Positions 13,232 to 53,235 of a DNA stretch of 64,000 nucleotides are shown piece after piece. This stretch comes from Alphaproteobacteria bacterium (lineage in GTDB: Bacteria; Pseudomonadota; Alphaproteobacteria; Micavibrionales; UBA2020). The stretch covers positions 4,614-68,613 of the forward strand of contig JBGGMV010000037.1 of NCBI GenBank assembly GCA_041287865.1, in the 5' to 3' direction. A program made the position numbers and the translations under genes. How positions within the stretch are numbered: position 1 is the stretch's first letter; each line of letters opens with the position of its first letter. Below the pieces are notes generated by a model. It was not told where the DNA came from, did no database searches, and saw only the letters and a list, made by a program, of their open reading frames with translations.

Positions 13232-13933
13232 TCAAGCCGCTTGTTTGGCCAGCGTCGCCAGTATTTCGCGCGCGGCCAGCGCAGGATCGGCCGCCTGCGT
13301 AATCGGGCGGCCAATGACAAGGTAATCGGCCCCGAGGGTGGAGGCCTCCGCGGGCGTCATCACACGCTTCTGGTCGCCCGTTTCAGCGCCCGCAGGACGG
13401 ATGCCGGGGACAACCAGCAGCGTGTTAGGCGCGAGGAGTTTGCGCAGCATGACAATTTCCTTCGGCGAGCAGACAACACCGGCAAGACCGGATTTCTCGG
13501 CGAGAAGAGCAAGGCGCAGCACCTGCGGCGCGACATCAATCCCCTGCCCTACACTTTCAAGATTTTTTTCGTCAAGGCTGGTGAGGACGGTGACGCCCAG
13601 AATTCTGGTGGATGTATCTCTCGAGACATCGACGGCTGCCTGCATCATCTCCAACCCGCCTGAAGTATGGATGGTAAGAAAATCGGGGCGGCAGTTGAGC
13701 GCGGATTTCACCGCGCCCGCGACCGTATTCGGAATATCATGCAGCTTGAGGTCGAGAAAAATTTCGGCATCAGGCGCCAGCTTGCGGATGGCTTCAATGC
13801 CCTTGGGCCCTTCGGCGACGAAAAATTCAAGGCCCAGCTTGATGCCGACCTTCGTTCCCGCAAGGCGTTTTACAAGGGCGGCGGCGTCATCCAGCTTGTT
13901 CGCATCGATCGCGCAGAAAACCCTTGCCGCCAT
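13232..13933 (-). CDS. pyrF: Orotidine 5'-phosphate decarboxylase
   Basis: 233 aa with the DLKLHDIPNTV motif and a C-terminal GRPITQA. Confidence 0.9.
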   Translation of the reverse strand: MAARVFCAIDANKLDDAAALVKRLAGTKVGIKLGLEFFVAEGPKGIEAIRKLAPDAEIFLDLKLHDIPNTVAGAVKSALNCRPDFLTIHTSGGLEMMQAAVDVSRDTSTRILGVTVLTSLDEKNLESVGQGIDVAPQVLRLALLAEKSGLAGVVCSPKEIVMLRKLLAPNTLLVVPGIRPAGAETGDQKRVMTPAEASTLGADYLVIGRPITQAADPALAAREILATLAKQAA

Positions 13934-13943
13934 GTGCTTTTCC

Positions 13944-14405
13944 TCACTTTATTTCAAAGATGGCATCGACCTCGACCGCGGCGCCCAGCGGCAGCGCGGA
14001 AACGCCGACGGCGGCGCGCGCATGTTTTCCGGCATCGCCGAAAACCTCGACGATCAGGTCGGATGCGCCGTTGACCACTTTCGGATGGTCGGTGAATTCG
14101 GGCGTGGAGGCGACGAAGCCGCCGAGGCGCAGGCAGCGCGAAATTTTATCGAGGTCGCCCAGCGCGGCCTTCGCCTGCGCGACGATGTTGATAGCGCAAA
14201 CGCGCGCGGCTTTCTGGCCGTCTTCGAGCGAGACATCTTTTCCAAGATGGCCCTTGGTCATCTGACCGCCCGCACCGGGAAGCTGGCCCGAGATATAAAG
14301 AGTCTTGCCGGAAATGGTGAAGGGCACATAGTTCGCAACCGGCGGCGCGAGATCGGGGATGGTGATACCAAGCGCCGCAAGGCGCGCGTCGATTTTCGAG
14401 GTCAT
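13944..14405 (-). CDS. RidA/YjgF-family protein
   Basis: 153 aa with RidA-like length and C-terminal block ARAAVGVSALPLGAAVEVDAIFEI. Confidence 0.8.
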   Translation of the reverse strand: MTSKIDARLAALGITIPDLAPPVANYVPFTISGKTLYISGQLPGAGGQMTKGHLGKDVSLEDGQKAARVCAINIVAQAKAALGDLDKISRCLRLGGFVASTPEFTDHPKVVNGASDLIVEVFGDAGKHARAAVGVSALPLGAAVEVDAIFEIK

Positions 14406-14922: not shown

Positions 14923-15750
14923 ATGGAGTGTGTGATGCCCGTCATGGATTTTTTCACCAAGGCCGCGACAAAAATGGCCCAGCCTGACCTCGACCGCCAC
15001 CTTGTGCTGGCGGCGCAGGAGGGCGATATCGAAAAAATGAAAACCCTGATCAAGCAAGGCGCCAGCATCGACGGCCGCGACGCCAGCGAAGACACTCCCC
15101 TGATCGGCGCAGCGCGCGAAGACAAGCTGGAGGCCGTGAAATTCCTGCTGAAGCAAGGCGCCGACCCGACCCTGCAAAACGGCATCGGCAAGACCGCGCT
15201 GCTGATCGCGCTTTGCGACCATGTGGCCGAAGAAATCTCGCTCACGCTGGTCAAGACCGGAAAAGCGCTCGATGCAGTCGACATGCACGGCAACCCCGCC
15301 GCCTTTTACGCCGCGCAATACGGCCACCCAAAAGTGCTGGAGGCCCTGGCCGAAGGCGGCGCCGATATGGCGAAGCCCGGCAAGTACGGCACCACGCCGC
15401 TGATGCGTGCTATCGAAGTCGGGCAGATTGATGCCGGCCGCACGCTGATCGGCGAGAAGCTGGTGCCTGCGGTTGGCATTGATATGCAGGATAATAACGG
15501 CTCGACCGTGCTGGCGCTGGCGGTCGAAAACAAGCGCGATATCTTCGTCATGTCCTTTATCGCGCTGGGCGCGAACGCGGACCTGAAAGACAAGCAGGGC
15601 CGCACGCCCTATTCCATCGCCGAGGAAACGGGACAGACCGCTATCTGCCGCGCCCTCGAAGAACAGCGCGCAAAAAAATACGCCGTGGCAGCATCGGCAA
15701 CGGTCAAGACCATGAAAACGATTTCGCTGCGGACGGGGGCCACGCCATGA
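14923..15750 (+). CDS. Ankyrin-repeat protein 1 (275 aa)
   Basis: Repeated ANK consensus (GASIDGRDASEDTPLIGAAREDKLEAVKFLLKQGADP, GNPAAFYAAQYGHPKVLEALAEGGAD, and others). An AAGG RBS precedes the ATG. Confidence 0.85.
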   Translation: MECVMPVMDFFTKAATKMAQPDLDRHLVLAAQEGDIEKMKTLIKQGASIDGRDASEDTPLIGAAREDKLEAVKFLLKQGADPTLQNGIGKTALLIALCDHVAEEISLTLVKTGKALDAVDMHGNPAAFYAAQYGHPKVLEALAEGGADMAKPGKYGTTPLMRAIEVGQIDAGRTLIGEKLVPAVGIDMQDNNGSTVLALAVENKRDIFVMSFIALGANADLKDKQGRTPYSIAEETGQTAICRALEEQRAKKYAVAASATVKTMKTISLRTGATP

Positions 15751-17774
15751 AAAGCCCGACGCCCGCAGACAAAGAAAAGCTGGACAAGGCAATCGCCGAC
15801 GCCGTGCGTCTCGGCAATATTTTCCGCGTCGAGGACCTGATCGACCAGTACAGCTGCAACCCCGACGCAAGTATTGCGGGCCACCCGCTGGTGACGCTCG
15901 CCGTCAAGCACAAGCAGCCGAAGATGCTGGCGCTGCTGCTGCAAAAGGGCGCAGCGGTCGATGCCGTCAACCCCGACGGAGATTCAGCGCTATTGCTGGC
16001 GACACGCGCCAGAAAGGGCGATTTTGTAAAGCTGCTGCTGGCGGCAGGCGCGCCACTGCTGCAACAGAACAACGCCGGCGACAGGTCGGCCGATATCGCG
16101 CTGCGCAGCACGCTGGCATCGCGCCGCGAGGAAGACGCCGCCCACCAGAACCGCAAGCATGAATTCCGCGCCGTGATCGACAAATGGGGCGAAGTGCTCG
16201 AAGCCTTCGTCACGCACCCCGCTTTCGACGCCACCACAGGCTGCGACGGCAAGCCTTATATCAATTTCGCCGTCGATGCCTCCACCCCCGGCGTCGTGTC
16301 TGCCTTGCTTGCACGCGGGGCCAGCATTGAATCGATCACGGCTGCGGGCGATACCCCGCTGTTGCAGGCTGCGCAGCACTGCCGTGAAGATTTCACAGAA
16401 CTGCTGCTAGGCAAAGGCGCAAACGTCAATGCCGTTAATAACGCCGGCGAAGACGCCGTCAGCACCCTGCTGAAAAAAGCCGCAAATATGTGCGCGGAAG
16501 AAGCTGACCTCTACGACTTCCAGCTGAAGGATCACCGTCCCGAAACCGCGCGGCGTGAAGCGCTGGCCACGCTGCTGATCAACCAGCAGGGCTTTAATGC
16601 GAAAGGTGCTGCGGGCGGGCAGCCCTACATCGCGCTGGCCGCCGCAGGTACGGGCATCGCGGTAGTCGAAGCGCTGCTGGCGAAGGGCGCGAATGTCGAC
16701 GCGCAGGATTCCGCAGGCGATACGCCGTTGTTCAAAGCGGCGCGCGCCGGAAACCAGGAGATGGCCGAATTCCTGCTGCAAAAGGGCGCGGATGCGCGTC
16801 ATATCAATGCGACCGGCGAAACGCTGGAATCGATCGTGCTGAAGGGGTTTGCCGACTTCGTGAACACCCCGTTGCGCACCGGCCACAAGCAGACAAGAGC
16901 AAAATGGGAAAAATTCTCCGCCTGGGCGATCGAGAAAGACGGCTATAACATCGAGGCCGCCGCAGGCGGCCTGACGCTGCTGGGCCTTGCCGCGCGGCTG
17001 GACGAGCCCGCGCTGGTGGAAGCACTGCTGAAAAAAGGCGCAGATATAAACGGCCAGCATGACAGCGGCTACACGCCCCTGATGGCGGCGGTGCAGGGCT
17101 GCAGGAAAGAATTCGCGCAGGCGCTGCTGTCAGGCGGCGCAAGGCTGGACATCACGACGAAAACGGGTGAAACCGTCATCGGCACCGCGCTGAAGGGCAC
17201 GTCGGATTTCATGGACCAGATGGATAACCCGCCCGAGCACTTCGACTTGAGGGAGGCCCCCGAACAGCTGGCACGCTGGGAAAGCCTGTTCGAAATGCTG
17301 GCCGCCGGGCAGGGTTACGATGCCAATGCAAAGGGCGGCGGCAAGCCGCTGGTGGCGCTGGCGGCGCGCTTTAATTCCGCGGCGACGCTTAAGTCATTGC
17401 TGGAGGCCGGCGCAACCCCCGACGCGCCCGCCGACAACGGCGACACCGCCCTGATGGTCGCAACCCGTCATTGCCATCCCGACCATGCCAAATTACTGCT
17501 GGAAAAAGGCGCCAGCCCCTATGCGCAGAACGCCGCCGGCATTACTGCCCAGAAAATCGCGGTCGATGCCGAAGACGCCTTCCTGCAGACCCGTCCCGGC
17601 AGCGGCACGACATGGGAACAGCACGAAGCAACCCGCAGGAAATGGGACAAGCTGGTCGACATGCTGTCGAGTCAGCAGGAAAACGTCGCCTCGGCGCTCA
17701 TCGCCCCGCCCACCGAAGCCGTTGCCGTGCGCAACAAGCCGCTCAGGCTGAAACTGAAGCTGGGGCAGCAATGA
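15747..17774 (+). CDS. Ankyrin-repeat protein 2 (675 aa, built of super-repeats)
   Basis: Many ANK units (for example GDTPLLQAAQHCREDFTELLLGKGANVNA). Its ATGA start overlaps the stop of ankyrin gene 1. Confidence 0.9.
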   Translation: MKSPTPADKEKLDKAIADAVRLGNIFRVEDLIDQYSCNPDASIAGHPLVTLAVKHKQPKMLALLLQKGAAVDAVNPDGDSALLLATRARKGDFVKLLLAAGAPLLQQNNAGDRSADIALRSTLASRREEDAAHQNRKHEFRAVIDKWGEVLEAFVTHPAFDATTGCDGKPYINFAVDASTPGVVSALLARGASIESITAAGDTPLLQAAQHCREDFTELLLGKGANVNAVNNAGEDAVSTLLKKAANMCAEEADLYDFQLKDHRPETARREALATLLINQQGFNAKGAAGGQPYIALAAAGTGIAVVEALLAKGANVDAQDSAGDTPLFKAARAGNQEMAEFLLQKGADARHINATGETLESIVLKGFADFVNTPLRTGHKQTRAKWEKFSAWAIEKDGYNIEAAAGGLTLLGLAARLDEPALVEALLKKGADINGQHDSGYTPLMAAVQGCRKEFAQALLSGGARLDITTKTGETVIGTALKGTSDFMDQMDNPPEHFDLREAPEQLARWESLFEMLAAGQGYDANAKGGGKPLVALAARFNSAATLKSLLEAGATPDAPADNGDTALMVATRHCHPDHAKLLLEKGASPYAQNAAGITAQKIAVDAEDAFLQTRPGSGTTWEQHEATRRKWDKLVDMLSSQQENVASALIAPPTEAVAVRNKPLRLKLKLGQQ

Positions 17775-18361
17775 AGGACGATTTTGACGATAAAGCCGCG
17801 CCGCATAATGGCAAGAACCTGCTCGGCGAACAGCTGATCACCGCGATCAATACCGGCGATCACGGCGAAGTCGTATCTCTGCTGGACAAATGGGCCGACC
17901 CCGCCGCCTATACCGACGCGGAAGGGCACGCCATCATCGCGGCCGTCAAGCAGCATAACCCCGAGATTTTAAAAACATTGGTCGAAGCCGGCGCGCCGCT
18001 GAACGTGCGCGACCGCGACGGCAAGACGCCGCTGCATGTGGCCGTCACCTACGGAAACGTCGACCATGTTAAAACGCTGGTGACGAAGGGCGCGATTGTC
18101 ACCATTCCCTGCCACGAGGGTCGCACGGCGCTGCAGCGCGCAGAAGAATCCTACGACTACGCCTATAAGATGCTGGAAAATGCCGCGCAGTCGGAAAGCG
18201 CGACCGATTTCGAGCAGGAAACGGTCAATCGCCTCGACAAGATCACCAGCCTGCTGAAACAGTATGTGAACAACGCTCCCGATACGACTTTCGACGACGG
18301 GCTGCTGGAAAACATCCACATCAAGTCGCCGCTGCGCCTGAAGAAGCCGGGGGCGACATGA
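17771..18361 (+). CDS. Ankyrin-repeat protein 3 (196 aa)
   Basis: The internal start MKDDFDDK of ORF 17471-18361 was chosen because its ATG overlaps the stop of gene 2 (ATGA) and the upstream part lies inside gene 2. ANK units include DGKTPLHVAVTYGNVDHVKTLVTKGA. Confidence 0.8.
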   Translation: MKDDFDDKAAPHNGKNLLGEQLITAINTGDHGEVVSLLDKWADPAAYTDAEGHAIIAAVKQHNPEILKTLVEAGAPLNVRDRDGKTPLHVAVTYGNVDHVKTLVTKGAIVTIPCHEGRTALQRAEESYDYAYKMLENAAQSESATDFEQETVNRLDKITSLLKQYVNNAPDTTFDDGLLENIHIKSPLRLKKPGAT

Positions 18362-18897
18362 GCATCGGCGACGAAGTGGAAACGCCGGGACGCGATATTC
18401 CCTGCGATGGCGACAATGCACTGATGTTCTACGCAAAGCGCGCAGGCAGCCATCGCAAGATATTCAGGCTGGCGTCTGAAGGCCATGACCTCAACGCACG
18501 CGACGACCTTGAACGCTGCTCGTTGATACTGGCGACAGTCAGCCACGATGTGCGCAACGTTCTGGTGCTCTTGCGCAAAGGCGCGGACCTGCATTCAACC
18601 GACGAGGGCGGCGATACGCCGCTGCACTGGGCGGTTTACCACAAGAACGCCGATGTCGCGCGCCTGTTGCTAAAAAAGGGCGCGGACATGGAGAAGCCCA
18701 ACCTGAAGGGCCAAACCCCGTTGCAGGCGGCGCTAGACGATTGCCATGCGCCGATGGTCGAAACCTTTATCACCGCTAAAACGGAACGCCTGACGGCCGC
18801 CTTCACCAAAGGCACGGCGGCACCGCTGACTGTGAGGCTTCCCCTGACCCTGGGCGCACGCGCCAAATTGAAACAAAAAGCTAGGAAGCCGCTTTAA
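18358..18897 (+). CDS. Ankyrin-repeat protein 4 (179 aa)
   Basis: ANK units (GGDTPLHWAVYHKNADVARLLLKKGADM). Its ATGA start overlaps the stop of gene 3. Confidence 0.85.
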   Translation: MSIGDEVETPGRDIPCDGDNALMFYAKRAGSHRKIFRLASEGHDLNARDDLERCSLILATVSHDVRNVLVLLRKGADLHSTDEGGDTPLHWAVYHKNADVARLLLKKGADMEKPNLKGQTPLQAALDDCHAPMVETFITAKTERLTAAFTKGTAAPLTVRLPLTLGARAKLKQKARKPL

Positions 18898-21436
18898 GCA
18901 GCTCGGGCACCGGCTGTGCGGCGCGTTTTTCCACACTGACGGGCGGCGCGAAAACCGGATAGAGCAGCGAACAGCCGTCACGGTACAGCCGCAAGCTTTT
19001 CACGCCATATTCCCATGCCTGCAGCGACAGTTTCGCCACGTCTTCGATAGCGGCGTGGTGCGGCAGCTCGACCGTATGGGCGACGGCGCCTGAAATAAAG
19101 CTTTCGATGCCGGCCTGCATCCGCACCTGCGCCTGCGGCGATACGCTGCGCACGCTGACATTTCCCGCCACGCAGTCGAAGACCGGCAGGTGCTTTTCCT
19201 TCAGGTGCGGCGCGCCCTGCAGCGTCATCGCGCCGCAGCAGTAGAGGTTCGCGGCGTCGATATCATCCTCGGAAAAGCCAAGGGCGGAGAGCATGTCAAA
19301 GGCGCTGTCCTCGATCGCGGCGGCGGGCAGGCCCAGCATATGGCGGCAGAAATCCGCGCCCAGCGTCCATTTGTTGAAGGCGTAGCGGATATGCTGCGCC
19401 GAATGCAGCGCGGCCTCCAGCGCATCCAGCGCTGCCTGATGGAACCCTTTTTCGCGCAAAGAGGCGTGGTTGATGGCGGGCGCGTCCAGCAGCGTGCCGT
19501 GGCCAGCGGCGTAGAAATGGATGTCTTCTTCCTGCTGCACGCTGTAGCCGAGCTTTTTCAGAGCGCGGGCGGCCATGGGGTTGATCTTCTTGCCATAGAT
19601 GGCGTCGCGCGAAATATCGCCGTAATAGCCTTCGAACCTGACCAAACTTGCTTCGGGCGCGATATCGCGCGTCTGCGCACCCAGCAGGTGCTGCGTTTCG
19701 ATAGATGTTCCCACCGCCGTCAGGTGTGCGTGGCGGAAACCGTGCTGGCGGCCCGCGGCATAGGCGGCCTCCCACGTGGCGCGCGCGGCTTCGGCAAGCG
19801 CCGTATCGGGGCAGAGCGAAGCCTTCATCTGCACGGGGCGGCGCGTCATGCCTTTTTGCATGGCGGATGCGCCGTTCAGCGCGGTGATTTTATCCTTCAC
19901 CGCCTGCAGGTGGTCTTTTTCAAGCAGGCGGTACATGTCATAAGGACCAGCCGCAGCGGCGATGTCGGCCGAAGTGAGCTGAGCCGCCGCCGACACAAGC
20001 GCGGCCACCAGCCCCGCCGTCGCACGGCCTTCGTCGCTGTCATAGGCAAGGGCGGAACCCATCAGCAGCGCCGCAAATCCGGTCATGCCGATATCAATCG
20101 GACGATAGGCGCGCGTTTTGTCGGAGACAGTCGCAAGGCCGAACGAGCCCTCCAGCGCGATGGCGATCAATTGCGTTGCGTGAACCAGCAGCGCGGCGTC
20201 AACAACGCCCTCGCCCTTCTGGAAGGCGGGAAGATTGAGCACAGCGCCCGGCGCTTCGGTGCCGGGCAGGAAGACAAGGCCGGATTCCAGACCCGGCCCC
20301 TGCGCGCCCCAGATTCCGGCGGCGCTGTCACGGAAGAACAATCCCGGCTCGCCCGATGACCACATGGCAGCGGTGATTTTTTCCCACAGCTTGTCGGCTG
20401 GATAATGCCGCTGCCCGCCCAGCAGGAAACCGTGGCCGGTCAGCGCGCGTTCGATAAATTCGTCCGGCAACGAGAGCACGGCAGAAAGCGAGGCGGGCGA
20501 CGGGTCTTCCTGCGTGCGCGGCAGGTCGATATCCTCGAACCCCTGTTCGGCGCGCGAAATCGCCATGCGGATCGCGGCCTCGGCCACGCCGGCGGCGCGG
20601 GCGGATTCCATCGCAAGGTAAAGGTCGCGGTTATAGACGGGATCAAAACCGCGCAGGTTGCCACGGTCGCAGGCGTCCATCACGCCATGCAGCGCCTGCC
20701 GCAGGGTGGAGGCGCCAAGGGCGCGGGAAATATCGTCGACGTCGCTGCGCAGTTTTTGTTCCGCGAAGCCGGGGCTGGACAGGTTTTCAACCGGCAGCAC
20801 CACGGCGGCCTTCGCATTATCCAGCGCGAACCTTGCGCCAAGGATGCCCACGCGCTTCAGGATATCGGCACGACTGTCGTCAGCCGCCACCATGGCGGAG
20901 ACGCCCGTCACCACTGGCATGTTTTCGCTGAAAGCCGCGATGCCGGCGGCGGGCACAAAGCCCGCTTCAAGGCCATAGGCCCAGTTCAATCCGGCCATAG
21001 CCAGCAACTGCGGCTCCGGCATCGCCATCTGGCAGGCAACAAGACGCTGGAATTCGTCGAAGAAGATGCGCGCGTCGTCCTCGCCGTCAAAAATACCCGC
21101 CTGCCATGCGTGATAGCAAAGCCCGCCCGCGACCCGATGCAGCACCTCGCGGAAGTCGCGCTCGTAGCGGTAGCGCGATTCGGCCGAAATACCGTCGAGG
21201 TCGTCATCGGCCACGCGGCGGCAGAGCCATTCCGGCACGCCCTCTTCCTGCACGGCGCGCGTCAGCGCGGGCAGCGATCCGCGGTAAAAAACCTTTTCAA
21301 TCAGCAGCTCAGCCGCCGCCGCGCCCCAGCTGGCCGGCACGATGTACTCCAGCCAGTCCTCGCCCTTGTGCACGCGCCATGACAGGCCCTCGAAGGGGCC
21401 CTGGTCGGCGCGTGTCTGCAGGCGGTTCAAGCGCAT
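18881..21436 (-). CDS. Class II (B12-dependent) ribonucleotide reductase homologue, apparently lacking catalytic motifs
   Basis: 851-aa intact ORF with several NrdJ-like blocks: HRVAGGLCYHAWQAGIFDGEDDARIFFDEF, YRPIDIGMTGFAALLMGSALAYDSDEGRA, YAFNKWTLGADFC, LYCCGAMTLQGAPHLKEKHLPVFDC and LRLYRDGCSL. I cannot find the SACF, GSGxG or NPC(S/G)E motifs, or the long C-terminal tail. Confidence 0.75.
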   Translation of the reverse strand: MRLNRLQTRADQGPFEGLSWRVHKGEDWLEYIVPASWGAAAAELLIEKVFYRGSLPALTRAVQEEGVPEWLCRRVADDDLDGISAESRYRYERDFREVLHRVAGGLCYHAWQAGIFDGEDDARIFFDEFQRLVACQMAMPEPQLLAMAGLNWAYGLEAGFVPAAGIAAFSENMPVVTGVSAMVAADDSRADILKRVGILGARFALDNAKAAVVLPVENLSSPGFAEQKLRSDVDDISRALGASTLRQALHGVMDACDRGNLRGFDPVYNRDLYLAMESARAAGVAEAAIRMAISRAEQGFEDIDLPRTQEDPSPASLSAVLSLPDEFIERALTGHGFLLGGQRHYPADKLWEKITAAMWSSGEPGLFFRDSAAGIWGAQGPGLESGLVFLPGTEAPGAVLNLPAFQKGEGVVDAALLVHATQLIAIALEGSFGLATVSDKTRAYRPIDIGMTGFAALLMGSALAYDSDEGRATAGLVAALVSAAAQLTSADIAAAAGPYDMYRLLEKDHLQAVKDKITALNGASAMQKGMTRRPVQMKASLCPDTALAEAARATWEAAYAAGRQHGFRHAHLTAVGTSIETQHLLGAQTRDIAPEASLVRFEGYYGDISRDAIYGKKINPMAARALKKLGYSVQQEEDIHFYAAGHGTLLDAPAINHASLREKGFHQAALDALEAALHSAQHIRYAFNKWTLGADFCRHMLGLPAAAIEDSAFDMLSALGFSEDDIDAANLYCCGAMTLQGAPHLKEKHLPVFDCVAGNVSVRSVSPQAQVRMQAGIESFISGAVAHTVELPHHAAIEDVAKLSLQAWEYGVKSLRLYRDGCSLLYPVFAPPVSVEKRAAQPVPELLKAAS

Positions 21437-21617
21437 TTCGTAACCCGCTGGAAAAACAGGGAAAACTTATAGATGTTCCGTAGTGGAATGGCTGTGACTG
21501 TGGCATAGGCGCACAGGCTGATCAACGAATGATTTTCCAGGGCGTTTTTGCCAAGAAAAACATTGCGCTTTCCCAAGGGTTAAGCGTATTTAGGATGTTA
21601 CGGAACGGTGAAAAACA

Positions 21618-22007
21618 ATGGCTAAATTTTTCATATTTAGCGTACTGAGCAATGTCTCCATGCTGCTGCATACCACCTTTTGCGGCAAGGCTGCGGGACA
21701 GGATCATCTCGGCAACCGCTATTATCGCGGCAAGCCCCGCTTCAAGGGCGGGCGCGAACGCCGCTGGGTGATTTACAAGAACGAGATCGAGGCTTCGCTG
21801 GTTCCGCCGGAATGGCACGGCTGGCTGCACCACCAGACGGACGTTGTGCCGCCGCGCGACAGCCGCCACCGCAAGGATTGGCAGAAACCGCACCAGCCCA
21901 ACGTCACCGGCACCGACGCGGCATACCTGCCGCCCGGCCATACCCTCAAGGGCGGCAAACGCGACGCCGCCACCGGCGACTACACCGCCTGGCAACCCCC
22001 GCAGTAA
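21618..22007 (+). CDS. NDUFA12-family (complex I 17.2-kDa subunit-like) protein
   Basis: 129 aa with GNRYYRGKPRF..RRWVIYKNEIEASLVPPEWHGWLHHQTD, the signature of bacterial NDUFA12 homologues. Confidence 0.85.
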   Translation: MAKFFIFSVLSNVSMLLHTTFCGKAAGQDHLGNRYYRGKPRFKGGRERRWVIYKNEIEASLVPPEWHGWLHHQTDVVPPRDSRHRKDWQKPHQPNVTGTDAAYLPPGHTLKGGKRDAATGDYTAWQPPQ

Positions 22008-22026: not shown

Positions 22027-22518
22027 ATGCAACGCAATATCGTCGAAACAATTCTGGGCGCGGTCGTGCTGCTGGTGGCGGGGGCCTTCCTGCTCTTCTT
22101 CTACCGCTCGACCGATATCGCCCCCGCGACGGGCTATGAAATCCAGGCGCGCTTCGACAAGATCGACGGCCTTGAAGCCGGCAGCCCCGTGCGCATCAGC
22201 GGCGTGAAGGTCGGGCAGGTGATGGGCTTCGAGCTTGACCCCGAATCTTTCCGCGCCATCGTCCACATGAACCTCGACAATTCGATCAAGCTGCCGACCG
22301 ACACCGCTGCCGTGATTTCGAGCGCGGGTTTGCTGGATGGCAAGTTCCTCTCGCTCCAGCCCGGCAACGAGGATGAGATCCTGAAGGACCGCGGCGAGAT
22401 CACGCTGACGCAGTCCACCCCCAGCCTTGAACAGCTGCTGGGACAAGTCATCTTCAGCCTGACCAGCAAGAAGGATGACGGCGGCGGTGAAGAAACGCCC
22501 GCACCGGCCACGCCCTGA
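22027..22518 (+). CDS. mlaD: Outer-membrane lipid asymmetry maintenance protein MlaD
   Basis: 163 aa. N-terminal TM MQRNIVETILGAVVLLVAGAFLLFF followed by an MCE domain. The NDUFA12-mlaD-DUF2155 synteny is conserved. Confidence 0.85.
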   Translation: MQRNIVETILGAVVLLVAGAFLLFFYRSTDIAPATGYEIQARFDKIDGLEAGSPVRISGVKVGQVMGFELDPESFRAIVHMNLDNSIKLPTDTAAVISSAGLLDGKFLSLQPGNEDEILKDRGEITLTQSTPSLEQLLGQVIFSLTSKKDDGGGEETPAPATP

Positions 22519-23219
22519 TGCGCCTTTTAGCCGCCATTGTCTTGCTTGGCCTGATGATGCCTCTGCCCGCGCTGGCGCAGGAAGACGCTGCCGCCCCTGA
22601 CGTGGCGCCGATGCCCGCCCCTGCTGCGCCGGCACGCAAGATGGAAGACACCCCCACCGTCGTACTGCGCACCGTCGACAAGCTATCGGCGCGCACGCAT
22701 ACCTTCGACATCCCGGTCGACAAGACCGTCAAGTTCGGCAATTCGCTGTTTATCAAGGTCCGCGCCTGCCGCCGCGCCTCGCCGCTCGACAAGCCTGAAT
22801 CGGCCGCTTTCCTGCAGGTCTGGGAGCGCAAGCCGTCGGAAGATATCTCCAGCTGGATTTTCAGCGGCTGGATGTTCGCCTCCAACCCCTCCCTCTCCGC
22901 CATGGACCATCCGGTCTATGACGTCTGGGTGATCGAGTGCAAGAACGCCTCGACCTCGGCCAAGTCGCAGGAAACATTCTCGTCCGAAACCGCGCCCGCG
23001 CATGCGCCCGACAGCGCAGCCTCCGTGGCCAAGCTGCCCGTCGCAGGTGAAACGCCGATTGTCGAAGCCGCGCCCGCCGCAGCCAAGCCGGAAGACAAAA
23101 AGCCCGCCCCCGCTGCGCCCGCCGCCGCCGATGCGCCCCGCCCCGCTGGCGTGCCCGCTTTGGACGCCCTGCCGGGTTCTTTCGAGGGCGGCGAAGAGGC
23201 TCCCGTCACGGATGATTGA
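22518..23219 (+). CDS. DUF2155-domain periplasmic protein with Ala/Pro-rich tail
   Basis: 233 aa with a signal peptide. The block LRTVDKLSARTHTFDIPVDKTVKFGNSLFIKVRACRRASPLDKPESAAFLQVWE matches DUF2155 as I remember it. Confidence 0.75.
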   Translation: MRLLAAIVLLGLMMPLPALAQEDAAAPDVAPMPAPAAPARKMEDTPTVVLRTVDKLSARTHTFDIPVDKTVKFGNSLFIKVRACRRASPLDKPESAAFLQVWERKPSEDISSWIFSGWMFASNPSLSAMDHPVYDVWVIECKNASTSAKSQETFSSETAPAHAPDSAASVAKLPVAGETPIVEAAPAAAKPEDKKPAPAAPAAADAPRPAGVPALDALPGSFEGGEEAPVTDD

Positions 23220-23803
23220 GCATTAAAGGCAACGTCCTTCGTCAGCGCAGGCGCAAGGCGTTTCAGGTATTCCTCGCGCGTAATCTCCTCGATCCCGAAC
23301 TGCTTCAGGTGCTCGTTCACGAACTGCGTGTCGAAGAGCACATAGCCTAAAGCCTTCAGCCTTGCGCAAAGATGCACCAGCGCGATCTTGCTGGCGTCGG
23401 TGCGTACCGAAAACATGCTCTCGCCGAAAAACGCTCCGCCAATGGCAATACCATAGACACCACCCGCCAGCACCTCGCCGTCCCAGGCCTCGACGCTATG
23501 CGCATGCCCCTGGCCGTGCAGCGTGGTGTAAAGGCCGATGATTTCATCGTTGATCCATGTCTCGGGGCGTGTGTCAGCGCAGCCGCGGATCACGCCGTCG
23601 AAAGCGCGGTCAAAGGTAATCGGGTAAGGTTGCTGGCGAATACGGCGCACTAGGCGCTTCGGCACATGCAGCCGGTCGAGCGGCAGCACGCCACGCTTGC
23701 CTGCTTCGTACCATTTGATTTCCGGCGCATCGCGCGCCTCGGCCATCGGGAAGACGCCCATGCGATAGGCCTGCAGGACAAGCTCGGGCGTAATACGCGT
23801 CAT
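22916..23803 (-). CDS. aat: Leucyl/phenylalanyl-tRNA--protein transferase with an unusual C-terminal extension of about 95 aa
   Basis: 295-aa ORF. The Aat core runs from MTRITPELVLQAYRMGVFPMAE to about ..EYLKRLAPAL. The reading frame then continues without a stop, antisense to the tail of the DUF2155 gene. Confidence 0.8.
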   Translation of the reverse strand: MTRITPELVLQAYRMGVFPMAEARDAPEIKWYEAGKRGVLPLDRLHVPKRLVRRIRQQPYPITFDRAFDGVIRGCADTRPETWINDEIIGLYTTLHGQGHAHSVEAWDGEVLAGGVYGIAIGGAFFGESMFSVRTDASKIALVHLCARLKALGYVLFDTQFVNEHLKQFGIEEITREEYLKRLAPALTKDVAFNAQSSVTGASSPPSKEPGRASKAGTPAGRGASAAAGAAGAGFLSSGLAAAGAASTIGVSPATGSLATEAALSGACAGAVSDENVSCDLAEVEAFLHSITQTS

Positions 23804-25970: not shown

Positions 25971-26486
25971 TTATTTAACCGGCAGCTCGTAGAAAAACTC
26001 GGTTTCTTTTTCGCCGTTGTACCAGACCGTTTCCTTCGCGCCCGTGAACTTGAAGCCGAAGCGCTGGTTGGCGCGTTTCGATACCGCATTGCTCTTGCGG
26101 TGCGAGACGACGAGTTTCTTGATCGTCGGATGCGCCCTGGCCCAGGCGATGCGGGCTTCGTACATCTTGCGCGACAGGCCTTTGTTGCGCCACGCGGGCT
26201 CCAGCCACGAACCCCAGAGTTTGCCGGTCTGAGCCGCATCATCGTTACGGTCAACAGCGACGCCCGTCATGCCGATGGGCTGGCCGTCGTTGAAGACGCC
26301 GAGGACGAGGAATTTCGGATCGCTGAGGCGTTCCTGCCAGTGGTTGTCGGCCAGCACCTTTTCCTCGTCATAGCGCGAGCCGAAAAATTTCGGATCGCTT
26401 TCCAGCGCGCGCAGGCGGGTTTCTTTATAAATCTGCCATTCGTCGGGGCGAAAAGCACGGACCTCGATGCCGGGATATTCTGCCAT
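25971..26486 (-). CDS. GNAT-family N-acetyltransferase
   Basis: 171 aa with a GNAT core (WRNKGLSRKMYEARIAWA). Last gene of a three-gene minus-strand operon. Confidence 0.8.
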   Translation of the reverse strand: MAEYPGIEVRAFRPDEWQIYKETRLRALESDPKFFGSRYDEEKVLADNHWQERLSDPKFLVLGVFNDGQPIGMTGVAVDRNDDAAQTGKLWGSWLEPAWRNKGLSRKMYEARIAWARAHPTIKKLVVSHRKSNAVSKRANQRFGFKFTGAKETVWYNGEKETEFFYELPVK

Positions 26487-26489
26487 GTC

Positions 26490-27593
26490 TCACCCCGCTT
26501 TTTTCTTCGCCAGCGCGTATTTGTCGGCTTCGTAGCCACGCAGGTATTGCGCGGGGATCGGGGGTTCCGCCCCCAGTTCCAGCGCGGCGTGGATCGGCCA
26601 ATAGGCGTCGCTGAGCAGTTTGCGCGCAAGGAAGACCATGTCGGCTTCGCCCTTCGCAATGATGTCGTTCGACTGCTGCGCCTGCGTGATCATGCCGACA
26701 GCGGCGGTGGCGATGCCCGCTTTTTCGCGGATTTCCTTGGCAAAAGGCACCTGGAAGCCGGGCGCGAAGGGAACCTTGGCGTCGCCTGTGACAAAGCCCG
26801 AAGAACAATCGATGAAATCAACGCCGATCGCTTTCAATTGCTGCGACAGCCTTGTGGTATCGGCGATGGTCAACCCGCCCTCCACCCAGTCGGTGCAGGA
26901 AAGGCGTACGCCCATGACGATATTCGCGGGAATGGCGGCGCGCACCATTTTTGCGATTTCAAGCGTCAGGCGGAAACGGTTTTCTTCCGACCCGCCGTAT
27001 TTGTCATCGCGCTTGTTGCTGAGCGGCGAGAGGAACTGGTGCAACAAGTATCCATGCGCACCATGCAGCTCGATGACTTGAAAGCCCGCCTTTACGGCGC
27101 GCAGCGCGCCCGCAACGAAAGCCTCTTTCAGTTTTTCGATTTCATCCAGCGTCAGCGCATGCGGCGCCGGATCGGTCGCGGTAAAGGGAATGGCGGAGGG
27201 TGCGACGGGCAGCCATCCGCCCTGACCGGGCAGCAGCGTCTTGTTGCTATCCCAAGGCCGCGCCTTCGAGGCCTTGCGGCCCGCATGGGCGATTTGAATA
27301 CCGGCGACAGCGCCGTTCGAGCGGATCACATCGGTCACGCGCTTCAGCGGTTCGATATGCGCATCCAGCCAGATGCCATTGCAACCGGGCGAAATACGCC
27401 CCTCGGGCGTCACATCGGTCATTTCCATGATGACCAGCCCCGCCCCGCCCGCCGCGCGCGATCCCAGGTGCACCACATGCCAGTCGGTGGCGAAACCGTC
27501 TTCCGACGAATACTGGCACATTGGCGACACGCCGATGCGGTTGCGGAATTCGAGCCCGCGCAAAGTGATGGGGGTGAAAAGGGGCGCTGTCAT
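26490..27593 (-). CDS. NADH:flavin oxidoreductase, Old Yellow Enzyme family (YqjM/NamA-like)
   Basis: 367 aa with LFTPITLRGLEFRNRIGVSPMCQYSS and ELHGAHGYLLHQFLSPLSN. Confidence 0.9.
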   Translation of the reverse strand: MTAPLFTPITLRGLEFRNRIGVSPMCQYSSEDGFATDWHVVHLGSRAAGGAGLVIMEMTDVTPEGRISPGCNGIWLDAHIEPLKRVTDVIRSNGAVAGIQIAHAGRKASKARPWDSNKTLLPGQGGWLPVAPSAIPFTATDPAPHALTLDEIEKLKEAFVAGALRAVKAGFQVIELHGAHGYLLHQFLSPLSNKRDDKYGGSEENRFRLTLEIAKMVRAAIPANIVMGVRLSCTDWVEGGLTIADTTRLSQQLKAIGVDFIDCSSGFVTGDAKVPFAPGFQVPFAKEIREKAGIATAAVGMITQAQQSNDIIAKGEADMVFLARKLLSDAYWPIHAALELGAEPPIPAQYLRGYEADKYALAKKKAG

Positions 27594-28135
27594 GCGGTTT
27601 TCTCCAATGATATCAGGAATTCTTCCGTCGCCTTGGGCGACTGCAGCCGAATATAGCGGACGGAAGGGTTTTTTCCAGCCCCGGCAAAATGTTCTTCATA
27701 CCTTTTTTCCAGCCGCCAGTAGCTCTGGAACAGCCAGACAATGATGCTTTTTTTCGAAAACATCAGCCGCCAGCTTTCGGTATTGCCGTTGCAAACGGGA
27801 TTCTTGTCGACCGCGCGCATGATTGACCTGCGCAACAGCTGCCAGAGCACGCGCGGGAAAGAATAATTGATCCAGATAAAGGCATCGGCGCGCGGCCAGA
27901 TGGCGTCTTTGACCTTGGAATAATTTCCCATGATGATCCACTTGTCTTCCGCCGCGGCCGCTTGCGCCAATACCAGCATTTCCTCGGGTGTGCGGTTCAG
28001 CCACGCGCCTTCTGAGGCCGGTTTCCAGTGCAGGTCGTCAAGGTCGACGGGCTTCAGGCCCAGCTTTTCCGCAAGCCTGAATCCCAAAGTCGTTTTGCCG
28101 GAGCCGGTGGGGCCGAGGATGACGATGCGCTTCAT
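27590..28135 (-). CDS. P-loop NTPase, adenylate-kinase/topology-modulation-protein-like
   Basis: The internal start MKRIVILGPTGSGKTTLG of ORF 27590-28426 was chosen because the upstream 97 codons are antisense to the MFS gene. Overlaps the OYE start by 4 nt. Confidence 0.7.
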   Translation of the reverse strand: MKRIVILGPTGSGKTTLGFRLAEKLGLKPVDLDDLHWKPASEGAWLNRTPEEMLVLAQAAAAEDKWIIMGNYSKVKDAIWPRADAFIWINYSFPRVLWQLLRRSIMRAVDKNPVCNGNTESWRLMFSKKSIIVWLFQSYWRLEKRYEEHFAGAGKNPSVRYIRLQSPKATEEFLISLEKTA

Positions 28136-30411: not shown

Positions 30412-31386
30412 ATGCTGAAAATATCTTTTGCCGCTCTGTGCCTGTCATTGCTGATGCTGGCCCGCCCCGCTTGCGCCGAGCCGCCGGCGCAGGCCGTTAT
30501 CGGCACGGTGATGGAGGTGGAGGGGCAGGCCTGGATATCCTCTCCCGTCACCAAGACGAAAACGGCGGCGAAGGTCGAAACCCCACTGCATATCAACGAC
30601 GTCATCGACACCGGCCCCAAGTCGCGCGTCTTTATCCTCTTCATCGACAACACGCAGATCACCCTGTCGGCCAATACCAAGTTCCGCGCCGAGGACTATG
30701 TCTTCGACGAAAGCGCGCCCGCGTACAACAAGGCGCGGTATAACGTGATGAGCGGGACGTTCCAGTATCTGAGCGGCGCGCTGGGCAAGACCAAGGATCC
30801 GGATGTCGAGATCGAGACGCCCTATGGCGCGATCGGCATCCGCGGCACGAAATTCTGGGCCGGCGAAATCGAAAACGCCTATGGCGTCAACGTGCAGGAA
30901 GGCCGCGTGCGCGTGCGCAACGAGGGTGGCGAAGTCTTCGTCGACAAAGGCAAGGGCACATCGCTCAAAAGCCGCAAGCAAAAACCCTCCGCCGCCGTTC
31001 CATGGCCCGCGAAACAACTCCAGCTGATTGCGGCCACCGTCTTGCTGTCGCGGCAGGACGACGTGCTGAAGCGCGTCATGGGTTTCCAGGGCAAAAACAA
31101 CATGCTGCGCGGCCAGTTCAAGGATTTCCTGAAGATCAACGGCGGAATACCCGGCATGAACAATGTGCCCGGCAACATGGTGCCCGGCCAGATAGTCCCG
31201 GGCCAGAAGGGCGGCATGCTGTTTGATATTCCGGGAGGCACCGCGCCGGTCAAGAACAGGGCGACCGTCGCCCCCGGCACCAGAACAAAAGCCGGCAATC
31301 GCACTGCGCCTGCAGAGGCAGTGCCGTCCACGCCAAGCCCCCGGGCTCCCTCGCCCTTTAAAATGTTCAAGGTTCCGGGCCTATGA
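30412..31386 (+). CDS. Secreted FecR-domain protein with Pro/Gly-rich C-terminus
   Basis: The internal start MLKISFAALCLSLLMLARPACA-EP (signal peptide) of ORF 30307-31386 was chosen. FecR-like block: GTVMEVEGQAWISS..PLHINDVIDTGPKSRVFILFIDNTQITLSANTKF. The tail has PGNMVPGQIVPGQ repeats. Confidence 0.7.
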   Translation: MLKISFAALCLSLLMLARPACAEPPAQAVIGTVMEVEGQAWISSPVTKTKTAAKVETPLHINDVIDTGPKSRVFILFIDNTQITLSANTKFRAEDYVFDESAPAYNKARYNVMSGTFQYLSGALGKTKDPDVEIETPYGAIGIRGTKFWAGEIENAYGVNVQEGRVRVRNEGGEVFVDKGKGTSLKSRKQKPSAAVPWPAKQLQLIAATVLLSRQDDVLKRVMGFQGKNNMLRGQFKDFLKINGGIPGMNNVPGNMVPGQIVPGQKGGMLFDIPGGTAPVKNRATVAPGTRTKAGNRTAPAEAVPSTPSPRAPSPFKMFKVPGL

Positions 31387-32546: not shown

Positions 32547-32550
32547 GTAA

Positions 32551-36934: not shown

Positions 36935-37037
36935 CCCCCCCTTTTCGGCCCCCTATCCGGCCTTTTTTCGACTTAATCGTTGACATTATGAATAATAATT
37001 CGCTATCCTGAAGCCTTCAAAAAACAAGGACGTCCTG

Positions 37038-37691: not shown

Positions 37692-37694
37692 GAA

Positions 37695-41961: not shown

Positions 41962-41998
41962 TTCGGACTTAAATTGCCATAATCATATTCCCATAGCA

Positions 41999-42027
41999 TT
42001 GACGCTCCCTGTAGGGGGTGCTAAAAA
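41999..42027 (+). promoter_or_regulatory. Candidate promoter upstream of the small ORF
   Basis: TTGACG (41999-42004), a 17-nt spacer, then TAAAAA (42022-42027). Confidence 0.3.
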
Positions 42028-42058
42028 CGATTCCACTCATTTTTATGGAATCGCAACT

Positions 42059-42355: not shown

Positions 42356-42367
42356 GGAGCAATCCCC

Positions 42368-53137: not shown

Positions 53138-53180
53138 CAATTCATCAAATTTGAACAGGACAAGGTTCGCGCCTTCCAAA

Positions 53181-53235
53181 GTTCCCCTCACCTTCCCATG
53201 CTTCGCATGGGCCCCTTCCTCCCCCGAGGGGGAGG
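53181..53235. repeat. Right inverted repeat (double-hairpin REP-like element)
   Basis: GTTCCCCTCACC..CCCATGCTTCGCATGGG..CCTCCCCCGAGGGGGAGG. Base changes relative to the left copy are compensatory in the central stem. Confidence 0.8.

What the first reader, a model, noticed from the sequence alone, without database searches (positions are those of the whole stretch)
18881..21436. Intact class II ribonucleotide reductase homologue that appears to have lost all catalytic motifs
The 851-aa ORF is collinear with B12-dependent NrdJ across many blocks I recognise:
- N-terminal PFEGLSWRVHK..VPASWGAAAAELLIEKVFYRG;
- HRVAGGLCYHAWQAGIFDGEDDARIFFDEFQRLVACQMAMPEPQLLAMAGLNWAYG;
- YRPIDIGMTGFAALLMGSALAYDSDEGRA;
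- AAGHGTLLDAPAINHASLREKGF;
- YAFNKWTLGADFC;
- GAMTLQGAPHLKEKHLPVFDC;
- FISGAVAHTVELP;
- LRLYRDGCSL.
The catalytic positions are replaced at every point where canonical enzymes carry them:
- the first active-site Cys (SACFI) reads SAMVA (about 20867-20911);
- the GSGxG/KSGGxxRRAAKM region is shortened;
- the thiyl-radical loop NPC(S/G)E...ACNL reads GLESGLVFLPGTEAPGAVLNL (about 20231-20299);
- the long C-terminal extension with the redox Cys pair is absent.
The frame is intact, so this looks like a retained pseudoenzyme rather than a decaying gene. It converges on the ankyrin operon with a 17-nt overlap of 3' ends.
Basis: partly seen in the sequence, partly recalled or inferred. Interest (0 to 1): 0.7.

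Follow-up and report, generated by a model that had tools for sequence, protein, structure and literature searches.

The report
Conserved dead B12 ribonucleotide reductase
This gene is the original B12-dependent ribonucleotide reductase of a group of uncultured Micavibrio-like bacteria: it has lost every part needed for catalysis and regulation, yet evolution still preserves it as carefully as a housekeeping gene while a separate class I enzyme makes the DNA precursors, so it must now do something else.

Summary
ORF 18881-21436 (-) encodes an intact 851-aa homologue of class II ribonucleotide reductase (NrdJ). It lacks both redox Cys, the thiyl-radical Cys, the catalytic Asn and Glu, specificity loops 1 and 2, both phosphate-binding loops and the C-terminal TSCPD/zinc-finger tail.

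It is not a decaying gene. At least 45 orthologues (40-100% identity) are all intact. dN/dS is 0.04-0.25, like neighbouring pyrF and folC and like live nrdJ. The predicted fold matches R. sphaeroides NrdJ (TM-score 0.87).

New findings:
- It occupies the same chromosomal slot (next to the NDUFA12/MlaD genes) as live nrdJ in many other alphaproteobacteria.
- It has lost the tandem NrdR operator (0/23 loci against 17/22 live loci) and carries its own conserved sigma-70 extended -10 promoter.
- Family-bearing genomes encode a complete, NrdR-controlled class I nrdAB on the same contig.
- The most constrained part is a 160-aa helical insertion shared with live alpha-type NrdJ, with no other structural relative.
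- Many other dead NrdJ-like groups exist, including one in cultured Haematobacter.

Its present function is only inferred: most likely non-catalytic binding or scaffolding.

The parts
18881..21436 (-). Intact 851-aa ORF: catalytically dead NrdJ homologue (identical to NCBI MAG protein ACAH80_06085, annotated 'hypothetical protein')
   Evidence: NCBIfam NrdJ equivalog PRK07562 scores 496 bits against a cut-off of 1737
21029..21343 (-). Class II RNR N-terminal domain (PF08471), residues 32-136, retained
   Evidence: pLDDT above 90
21008..21019 (-). Former apical phosphate-binding loop: PNSP of live diphosphate reductases reads PEPQ (residues 140-143)
   Evidence: the role of the motif is from PMC8365446
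20792..20962 (-). Degenerate beta-A strand (first redox Cys lost) plus a shortened replacement of specificity loops 1 and 2, residues 159-215
   Evidence: live proteins are at least 0.90 conserved here, the family 0.53-0.56
20231..20329 (-). Former finger loop, residues 370-402: SNPCSEY...ACNL reads PGLESGL...EAPG. Variable in length and sequence across the family, and the least constrained part of the gene.
   Evidence: sliding dN/dS about 0.26; pLDDT dip
19691..19723 (-). Former distal phosphate-binding loop (APTG(T/S) of live enzymes reads GTSI), residues 572-582
19142..19639 (-). About 160-aa all-helical insertion specific to alpha-type NrdJ, residues 600-765. It is the most constrained part of the dead protein and the part most similar to live NrdJ.
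   Evidence: sliding dN/dS 0.02-0.09; 57-80% same consensus as live NrdJ; model pLDDT 85.8; the only structural match is the same insertion in 7b9p
21497..21525 (-). Conserved sigma-70 extended -10 promoter-like element: -35 TTGATC (21525-21520), 17-nt spacer containing TG (21505-21504), -10 CACAGT (21502-21497)
   Evidence: Alignment of 18 family loci: TTG, TG, -11A and -7T are invariant while the flanks are unalignable; coordinates; absent from live loci
21437..21617 (.). Divergent intergenic region shared with the NDUFA12-like gene; it lacks the tandem NrdR boxes found upstream of live nrdJ
   Evidence: 0/23 family loci against 17/22 live loci above the 99th percentile of shuffles, Mann-Whitney p = 8e-8
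21618..22007 (+). NDUFA12-like gene, the divergent neighbour; a synteny anchor shared with live nrdJ loci
18358..18897 (+). Last gene of a four-gene ankyrin-repeat operon (14923-18897), convergent with the dead gene, with a 17-nt overlap of 3' ends (18881-18897). A local feature, not conserved across the family.
13232..14405 (-). YjgF-family and pyrF genes: downstream synteny anchors (YjgF also follows live nrdJ in several orders)

Best explanation
The gene is the positional orthologue of the ancestral alphaproteobacterial nrdJ. In a Micavibrio-like clade it has become a non-catalytic protein (a pseudoenzyme).

Shown:
- It lacks all radical and redox residues, both phosphate-binding loops, the allosteric specificity loops and the reductant-shuttling C-terminal domain, so it cannot reduce ribonucleotides by any known RNR mechanism.
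- It keeps the RNR barrel fold, the class II N-terminal domain and the alpha-type insertion.
- It is under purifying selection as strong as housekeeping genes.
- It has left the NrdR regulon and has its own conserved promoter.
- Deoxynucleotide synthesis in family-bearing genomes is covered by a complete, NrdR-controlled class I nrdAB.

Inferred: once class I took over, catalysis decayed. The gene was kept because the scaffold carries a second, non-catalytic activity that live alpha-type NrdJ may already possess. That activity is most probably binding of a protein partner or ligand through the highly conserved insertion and the N-terminal domain. What it binds is unknown.
For: - Loss of catalytic, effector and substrate motifs in every member.
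- Score far below the NrdJ equivalog cut-off.
- Fold retained: TM-score 0.87 to 7b9p, pLDDT 87.8.
- dN/dS 0.13, against pyrF 0.12 and folC 0.11. Ten other family pairs give 0.04-0.25, against live nrdJ at 0.20-0.24.
- Monophyletic family on a long stem branch.
- Same NDUFA12-MlaD-DUF2155 slot as live nrdJ in Kiloniellaceae, Geminicoccaceae, Robiginitomaculum, Rhizobium, Micropepsaceae, Desertibaculum and others.
- NrdR operator lost; conserved extended -10 promoter gained.
- Class I nrdAB with all catalytic residues lies 2 kb from the dead gene in L018, and on the same 2.2-Mb contig in another genome. NrdR boxes sit upstream of those nrdA genes.
- The insertion is the most constrained and most live-like segment. 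It is also retained in an independently dead Caulobacteraceae protein at the same locus.
- The finger loop, the centre of the old active site, is the least constrained part and carries indels. This argues against a new active site there.
Against: - No direct evidence of expression, of a binding partner or of any ligand.
- A class I RNR was demonstrated in four family-bearing genomes, not in the window's own MAG.
- About 23 polar or charged positions are conserved only in the family: D254, D257, R258, D325, E329, H335, R532, R533, H646, D651, H657 and others. These could equally mark a new catalytic site.
- Cultured M. aeruginosavorus ARL-13 apparently lacks the gene, so it is not indispensable for this kind of organism.
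- Whether live NrdJ has a second function is unknown.
Confidence: 0.62

Rival explanations
1. Neo-functionalised enzyme: the remodelled barrel, or the surface around the family-specific motifs (LPVEN, MDACDRD, ALTGHGF, FFRDSA, RHAHLT, RDIAPE), forms a new active site that catalyses a different, non-radical reaction.
For: 23 positions are conserved in the family but variable or absent in live NrdJ, and 26 more are conserved in both but with a different residue. Many of these are Asp, Glu, His or Arg. The signature motifs are confined to this family. Constraint is as strong as for real enzymes.
Against: The centre of the barrel (the finger loop) is the least constrained region and varies in length by more than 20 aa. 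No Pfam, NCBIfam or PDB similarity to any other enzyme.
Confidence: 0.2
2. Regulatory or adaptor subunit for nucleotide metabolism: the dead protein binds deoxynucleotides or AdoCbl, or binds the class I RNR or another replication-linked protein, and acts as a sensor, buffer or modulator.
For: Pseudoenzymes commonly regulate the pathway they came from (general knowledge). In L018 the dead gene lies 2 kb from nrdAB. The fold is retained.
Against: Both phosphate-binding loops and both specificity loops, which are the known nucleotide sites, are destroyed. In the other genomes nrdAB is hundreds of kb away. The gene has left the NrdR regulon.
Confidence: 0.12
3. Plain pseudogene: a relic of nrdJ that is drifting and has not yet acquired stop codons.
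For: All catalytic motifs are lost, and NCBI annotates it as a 'hypothetical protein'.
Against: Intact in about 45 proteins and about 35 species down to 40% identity. dN/dS 0.04-0.25. Conserved promoter. Confident fold.
Confidence: 0.01
4. Still a ribonucleotide reductase that uses a non-canonical radical site or an external partner.
For: The barrel fold is retained.
Against: No conserved Cys anywhere in the finger loop or the beta-A region. Asn, Glu, both phosphate loops, the specificity loops and the reductant tail are all gone. A complete class I enzyme is present.
Confidence: 0.01

Closest known systems
Alphaproteobacterial-type class II ribonucleotide reductase NrdJ (NCBIfam PRK07562; structure 7B9P/7B9Q, Rhodobacter sphaeroides)
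   Same: Ancestry; same chromosomal slot; the 10-stranded barrel fold (TM-score 0.87); the N-terminal PF08471 domain; the 160-aa helical insertion, with motifs GHGTL..AP.INH, FNKWTLG, GFSEDDIDAAN.YCCGAMT.EGAPHL and VFDC.
   Different: No catalytic Cys/Asn/Cys/Glu/Cys; no PNSP or APTG phosphate loops; loops 1 and 2 replaced; no TSCPD or zinc-finger tail; no NrdR operator; about 350 aa shorter; 31-38% identity; scores 496 against the 1737-bit family cut-off.
Betaherpesvirus R1 homologues (MCMV M45, HCMV UL45): catalytically inactive RNR large-subunit homologues repurposed for host-cell-death control (my own knowledge; M45 is described as an inactive RNR homologue in bioRxiv 10.1101/324590, listed)
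   Same: An RNR large-subunit scaffold that lost its catalytic residues but is retained and functional: the established precedent for an RNR-derived pseudoenzyme.
   Different: Those are viral, derive from class I, and owe their new function to an added N-terminal RHIM motif. This one is cellular, derives from class II, has no added domain, and its function is unknown.
Other dead NrdJ-like groups found here: Caulobacteraceae 'TSCPD domain-containing protein' (P0069-71); the Haematobacter protein WP_051930301.1 (P0120); the full-length Cys-to-Ala variant in L058
   Same: NrdJ homologues that lack NPCxE and the redox Cys, keep the insertion, and share the YRT-to-YRP change. P0069 and L058 sit at the same NDUFA12-linked slot.
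   Different: They lack the window family's signature motifs and keep different ancestral parts: P0069 keeps TSCPD but lost the N-terminal domain, and L058 keeps everything except the catalytic residues. The Haematobacter copy is at another locus.
NCBIfam NF005401 / PRK06948 'ribonucleotide reductase-like protein'
   Same: A curated family of RNR-like proteins of unknown role.
   Different: The window protein matches it only over residues 761-820, at 54 bits against a cut-off of 906, so it is not a member.

Membership tests
Class II ribonucleotide reductase (NrdJ) as an enzyme | RNR 10-stranded alpha/beta barrel fold | tested here: met
   PF02867 at 1e-33; AlphaFold model pLDDT 87.8; Foldseek 7b9p TM-score 0.87, E = 6.5e-56
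Class II ribonucleotide reductase (NrdJ) as an enzyme | Thiyl-radical Cys on the finger loop, flanked by Asn and Glu (NPCxE) | tested here: not met
   SNPCSEY aligns to PGLESGL. There is no NPCxE and no conserved Cys in any of 43 family members.
Class II ribonucleotide reductase (NrdJ) as an enzyme | Redox-active Cys pair (beta-A Cys in HACF, and Cys in ACNL) | tested here: not met
   Both are absent. The window protein has no Cys in residues 137-255 or 257-541.
Class II ribonucleotide reductase (NrdJ) as an enzyme | Substrate phosphate-binding loops (apical PNSP, distal APTG(T/S)) | tested here: not met
   PNSP reads PEPQ and APTG reads GTSI. The role of the motif is from PMC8365446.
Class II ribonucleotide reductase (NrdJ) as an enzyme | Allosteric specificity site (loops 1 and 2: GSGTG...GGGxSSG...KSGGTTRRAAKM) | tested here: not met
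   The segment is replaced by a shorter, poorly conserved stretch.
Class II ribonucleotide reductase (NrdJ) as an enzyme | C-terminal TSCPD (IscU-like) domain plus Cys-rich zinc finger that delivers reducing equivalents (NrdJd type) | tested here: not met
   No PF12637. The protein ends about 30 aa after the barrel. The role of the CRD is from PMC5704485.
Class II ribonucleotide reductase (NrdJ) as an enzyme | Curated whole-protein score (NCBIfam equivalog PRK07562 or TIGR02504) | tested here: not met
   496.6 bits against a cut-off of 1737; 133 against 400
Class II ribonucleotide reductase (NrdJ) as an enzyme | Adenosylcobalamin binding and ribonucleotide reduction | not testable with these tools
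   Needs biochemistry.
NrdR regulon | Tandem 16-bp NrdR boxes 31-32 bp apart upstream of the gene | tested here: not met
   0/23 family loci against 17/22 live nrdJ loci exceed the 99th percentile of shuffles. The boxes are present upstream of class I nrdA in family-bearing genomes. The consensus is from my knowledge of Rodionov and Gelfand 2005.
Pseudoenzyme (retained, catalytically dead homologue of an enzyme) | Clear homology to an enzyme family together with loss of essential catalytic residues | tested here: met
Pseudoenzyme (retained, catalytically dead homologue of an enzyme) | Maintained by purifying selection across lineages | tested here: met
   dN/dS 0.04-0.25 in 11 pairs; intact ORF in about 45 proteins and about 35 species
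Pseudoenzyme (retained, catalytically dead homologue of an enzyme) | Expressed, and demonstrably lacking the ancestral activity | not testable with these tools
   Only indirect evidence: a conserved extended -10 promoter.

The most novel reading that the evidence does not exclude
The alphaproteobacterial type of NrdJ has a second, RNR-independent function carried by its orphan 160-aa insertion together with the N-terminal domain and barrel surface. This family and the many other dead NrdJ-like groups would then be natural separation-of-function variants, kept solely for that function after class I RNR took over dNTP synthesis. The role could be, for example, a structural or regulatory one linked to replication or the cell cycle. 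If so, live NrdJ in model alphaproteobacteria (Caulobacter, Sinorhizobium, Rhodobacter) would be a moonlighting protein.
Probability: 0.3. Interest if true: 0.75.

Novelty: new variant of a known kind. Interest (0 to 1): 0.62.

Why it matters
RNR is among the most intensively studied enzymes, and its homologues are routinely annotated and counted as RNRs. This case shows three things.

- A class II RNR gene can lose every catalytic, allosteric and regulatory feature in place and still be conserved like a housekeeping gene across a whole clade.
- The phenomenon is not isolated. Roughly 80-90 of the 150 representative clusters closest to this family lack the catalytic motif. Some are annotated as 'vitamin B12-dependent ribonucleotide reductase' in cultured bacteria, so RNR inventories and B12-dependence predictions based on homology are inflated.
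- The part that selection protects most is an insertion of unknown function shared with live enzymes. That gives a concrete, testable handle on a possible second function of alphaproteobacterial NrdJ. The culturable Haematobacter offers a route to genetics.

Tried and rejected
1. An internal tandem repeat in the insertion (LGYS.../LGFS...), noticed by eye, is not supported by BLASTP (E = 0.53).
2. Pfam scans of the isolated insertion and of the middle region gave nothing. The only hit was a sub-threshold TACO1/YebC N-terminal-like match at residues 263-298 (21 bits against a cut-off of 36). This is a lead only.
3. A fold search with the isolated insertion matched only the same insertion in 7b9p; the next hit had E = 1.8. 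It gives no functional hint.
4. L047 and L071, from one MAG, looked like a live plus a dead copy. They are two halves of one dead gene split across contigs.
5. P0050, which looked like a close live relative, is a truncated gene call of an unrelated live NrdJ.
6. Rfam found no cobalamin riboswitch or any other RNA family in the window.
7. The generic promoter scanner found nothing, and my first regular expression for the promoter element was faulty. The element was established by alignment instead.
8. The supplement of Loderer et al. has no Micavibrio entries.
9. An ankyrin gene as an obligate partner is rejected: it is absent downstream in several family loci.
10. The window itself holds no second RNR, nrdR, dNTP-salvage or B12 gene.
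11. CtrA and DnaA boxes are not enriched upstream.
12. Whether all dead groups share one origin could not be settled. The neighbour-joining tree groups them, but long-branch attraction is likely, and only one shared derived residue (YRP) was found.
Full report
**1. The observation**

The ORF 18881..21436 on the minus strand is real, starts with ATG and encodes 851 aa without interruption. It is unquestionably a class II RNR homologue:
- Pfam: RNR barrel PF02867 at 1e-33, and the class II N-terminal domain PF08471 at 4.7e-15.
- PDB: best match is the Rhodobacter sphaeroides NrdJ, 7b9p, at E = 4.7e-115.
- It fails the curated NrdJ models by a wide margin: PRK07562 scores 496 bits against a cut-off of 1737, and TIGR02504 scores 133 against 400.

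| Live NrdJ | Window protein |
|---|---|
| SNPCSEY | PGLESGL |
| ACNL | EAPG |
| GSGTG...KSGGTTRRAAKM block | a shorter, unrelated stretch |
| TSCPD and Cys-rich tail | absent |

The protein has no Cys between residues 137-255 or 257-541.

The apical phosphate-binding loop PNSP, whose Ser hydrogen-bonds the beta-phosphate in diphosphate reductases (PMC8365446), reads PEPQ at residues 140-143. The distal loop APTG reads GTSI.

The beta-A strand aligns to VPAAGIAAF. This does not change the conclusion. The 17-nt overlap of 3' ends with the ankyrin gene is exact.

**2. It is a conserved family, not a decaying gene**

A search of 5.8 billion proteins found an identical MAG protein annotated 'hypothetical protein'. 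It also found about 44 further proteins of 800-920 aa at 43-84% identity. All lack the TSCPD domain, and the score then drops sharply to live 1200-aa NrdJ at 31-36% identity. A scan of species-representative genomes found the family in about 35 uncultured alphaproteobacterial MAGs, several labelled Micavibrio sp..

Every family member lacks every catalytic motif. Every one of 27 live positional orthologues has all of them.

Selection (Nei-Gojobori dN/dS):

| Comparison | dN/dS |
|---|---|
| Window vs the 84%-identical orthologue (dS 0.83, unsaturated) | 0.134 |
| Syntenic pyrF | 0.122 |
| Syntenic folC | 0.113 |
| Syntenic MlaD | 0.218 |
| Ten independent family pairs | 0.04-0.25 |
| Two live nrdJ pairs | 0.20-0.24 |

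The family is monophyletic on a long stem branch. AlphaFold2 with the family alignment gives a confident model (pLDDT 87.8, pTM 0.87). It superposes on R. sphaeroides NrdJ with TM-score 0.87.

**3. Where it came from**

The gene sits between a divergent NDUFA12-like/MlaD/DUF2155/Leu-Phe-transferase block and the YjgF, pyrF, accD and folC genes in all family loci. Live nrdJ occupies the same slot in many other alphaproteobacteria. It is divergent from NDUFA12/MlaD/DUF2155 in at least 25 loci from Kiloniellaceae, Geminicoccaceae, Robiginitomaculum, Rhizobium, Micropepsaceae, Desertibaculum and others, and it is followed by the YjgF gene in several. No locus holds tandem copies. The dead gene is therefore the positional orthologue of ancestral nrdJ, not a spare duplicate.

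**4. Regulation changed**

I used the NrdR-box consensus (ACACWATATATWGTGT, two boxes 31-32 bp apart; from my knowledge of Rodionov and Gelfand 2005).
- 17 of 22 live nrdJ loci have a tandem operator scoring above the 99th percentile of shuffled sequence.
- 0 of 23 family loci do (Mann-Whitney p = 8e-8).

Instead, 18 family loci share a bipartite element about 60-90 nt upstream of the start codon. Its invariant bases are exactly the critical positions of a sigma-70 extended -10 promoter: the -35 TTG, the TG, -11A and -7T. The surrounding DNA is unalignable. In the window this is TTGATC (21525-21520), a 17-nt spacer containing TG (21505-21504), and CACAGT (21502-21497). That it acts as a promoter is an inference; its conservation is shown.

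**5. Who makes the deoxynucleotides**

The window has no second RNR and nothing else relevant to dNTP supply. A probe scan of all fetched loci found a complete class I operon 2 kb upstream of the dead gene in family locus L018.
- NrdA (600 aa) has ISCFL, SNLCSEI, VCCLSSLNL, IAPTAS, the YY dyad and a C-terminal CLSCQ.
- NrdB has the iron ligands and the radical Tyr.

Using this NrdA as a within-clade probe, orthologues at 86-87% identity were found on contigs of exactly the lengths that carry dead NrdJ genes: 2,203,028, 209,210 and 835,559 bp. For the 2.2-Mb contig the record name is identical: nrdAB lies at 782-794 kb and the dead gene at 114-137 kb. The 209,210-bp case is consistent.

These NrdA proteins have all catalytic residues. 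Three of the four nrdA upstream regions carry tandem NrdR boxes, reached by at most 1 of 300 shuffles. Cultured M. aeruginosavorus ARL-13 also encodes a class I small subunit and NrdR. It has no RNR-like gene after pyrF (PMC3189940 supplement) and was not hit in the genome scan.

So the clade relies on NrdR-controlled class I RNR. This was not shown for the window's own MAG.

**6. What selection is protecting**

| Segment | Residues | Conservation in live NrdJ | Conservation in the family | Same consensus residue in both |
|---|---|---|---|---|
| Catalytic, effector and substrate segments | 151-240, 361-390, 571-600 | 0.83-0.93 | 0.53-0.68 | 17-30% |
| Insertion | 631-750 | 0.65-0.75 | 0.63-0.81 | 57-80% |

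- 81 positions that are at least 95% conserved in live NrdJ are below 50% conserved in the family.
- The former finger loop is the least constrained region (omega about 0.26) and varies in length. Residues 601-700 are the most constrained (omega 0.02).
- The insertion, modelled alone (pLDDT 85.8), is an all-helical domain. Its only structural match in the PDB is the same insertion in 7b9p.
- The family also has its own signature motifs: LPVEN, MDACDRD, ALTGHGF, FFRDSA, RHAHLT, RDIAPE, VRFEG and YGKKLNP. About 23 residues are conserved only in the family, many of them charged.

**7. Explanation**

Most likely (about 0.6), this is a pseudoenzyme kept for a non-catalytic role carried by the insertion, the N-terminal domain and the barrel surface. 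Such a role may already exist in live alpha-type NrdJ. The loss of catalysis followed take-over by class I RNR.

The main rival (about 0.2) is a new enzymatic activity that uses the family-specific residues. The unconstrained barrel centre argues against it, but I could not map residues in 3D. A nucleotide- or cobalamin-sensing role (about 0.1) is disfavoured, because all known nucleotide sites are destroyed. The readings 'plain pseudogene' and 'still an RNR' are effectively excluded.

**8. Wider context and novelty**

An exhaustive profile search of 1.84 billion representative proteins returned 12,403 homologues. Among the best 150 clusters, roughly 80-90 lack an NPCxE motif. They include:
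- A Caulobacteraceae group that keeps TSCPD and sits at the same NDUFA12 slot.
- A full-length variant with both key Cys changed to Ala at the same slot (L058).
- A 915-aa protein of cultured Haematobacter at another locus, named 'vitamin B12-dependent ribonucleotide reductase' or 'YebC/PmpR family regulator' by different sources.

These groups lack the window family's signature motifs. Nearly all share a YRT-to-YRP change. Whether NrdJ died once or repeatedly remains open.

Literature searches found only the herpesvirus R1 homologues as described RNR pseudoenzymes, and no description of dead bacterial NrdJ. Loderer et al. note that a few Alphaproteobacteria have two NrdJd of which only one carries the Cys-rich domain.

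I therefore rate this a new variant of a known kind (an RNR-derived pseudoenzyme), of moderate to high interest. The function is unknown, but the evolutionary case is unusually clean, and it makes a possible second function of NrdJ testable.

Noticed in passing
L058 (CANIGJ010000006.1, MAG Rhodospirillaceae bacterium RE-9nov16-338), gene from about 6001, 1217 aa: A full-length NrdJ at the same NDUFA12-linked slot. It keeps the TSCPD/Cys-rich tail, ACNL, APTG and the catalytic Glu. But HACF reads YAAF, GSGTG reads GLGTG, and SNPCSEY reads STPASEY, so both key Cys are Ala. It looks like an early-stage dead NrdJ and is sister to the window family in a neighbour-joining tree.
   Followed up: partly
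L080/L081 8001-10799 (P0069; also P0070, P0071), Caulobacteraceae MAGs: A 932-aa 'TSCPD domain-containing protein': an NrdJ homologue that lacks all catalytic motifs and the N-terminal domain but keeps the insertion, TSCPD and the Cys-rich tail. It sits at the same NDUFA12-MlaD-DUF2155 slot, so it is an independent in-place death of nrdJ.
   Followed up: partly
L082 8001-10748 (P0120 = WP_051930301.1, Haematobacter missouriensis and relatives): A cultured Rhodobacteraceae genus carries a 915-aa dead NrdJ-like protein (finger loop ASLDGDFMFLSDTAAMPATLN) at a different locus, next to a phage-type integrase. Sources annotate it as 'vitamin B12-dependent ribonucleotide reductase' or 'YebC/PmpR family DNA-binding transcriptional regulator'.
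   Followed up: partly
Representative proteins P0073-P0220: Of the 150 representative clusters closest to the family profile, about 80-90 have no NPCxE motif. They fall into several groups with different retained domains. Nearly all share canonical (F/Y)RT(L/I)G changed to YRP(L/I). Dead NrdJ-like proteins appear widespread and are often annotated as RNR.
   Followed up: partly
window 20543-20650 (residues 263-298): A weak, sub-threshold match to the TACO1/YebC N-terminal domain (E = 3.7e-4, 21 bits against a cut-off of 36). The same Pfam family is recorded on the Haematobacter dead paralogue, and live alpha-type NrdJ has a similar DP..N..L..A...A....P...I motif.
   Followed up: no
window 14923-18897 (+) and 56898-57470 (+); also L086/L087 3923-4564: A four-gene operon of ankyrin-repeat proteins with overlapping stop and start codons, plus another ankyrin gene elsewhere in the window. 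Ankyrin genes also flank the class I nrdAB operon in related genomes. Ankyrin-repeat proteins are unusually abundant in this clade.
   Followed up: no
window 57471-62249 (-): A 1592-aa ORF with high GC3 (0.81) and no Pfam match, in the most GC-rich part of the window (about 66%). Several other long ORFs also have no Pfam match: 26100-27656, 30879-32573, 32551-33639, 36227-38372, 40648-43711 and 53129-54652.
   Followed up: no
window 22916-23219: The DUF2155 ORF (22518-23219, +) and the Leu/Phe-tRNA-protein transferase ORF (22916-23803, -) converge and overlap by about 304 nt. The overlap runs through Ala/Pro/Gly-rich low-complexity tails on both strands. One of the two ends may be over-called.
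   Followed up: no
window 21553-21570 (intergenic, written on the minus strand: AAGCGCAATGTTTTTCTT): A second conserved element in the NDUFA12/RNR-like intergenic region. It is shared by many family loci and absent from live loci, and may belong to the divergent NDUFA12 promoter or leader.
   Followed up: no
window 18886-18904 (-): A terminator-like hairpin followed by a T-run lies at the very 3' end of the RNR-like gene, inside the last codons of the convergent ankyrin gene.
   Followed up: no
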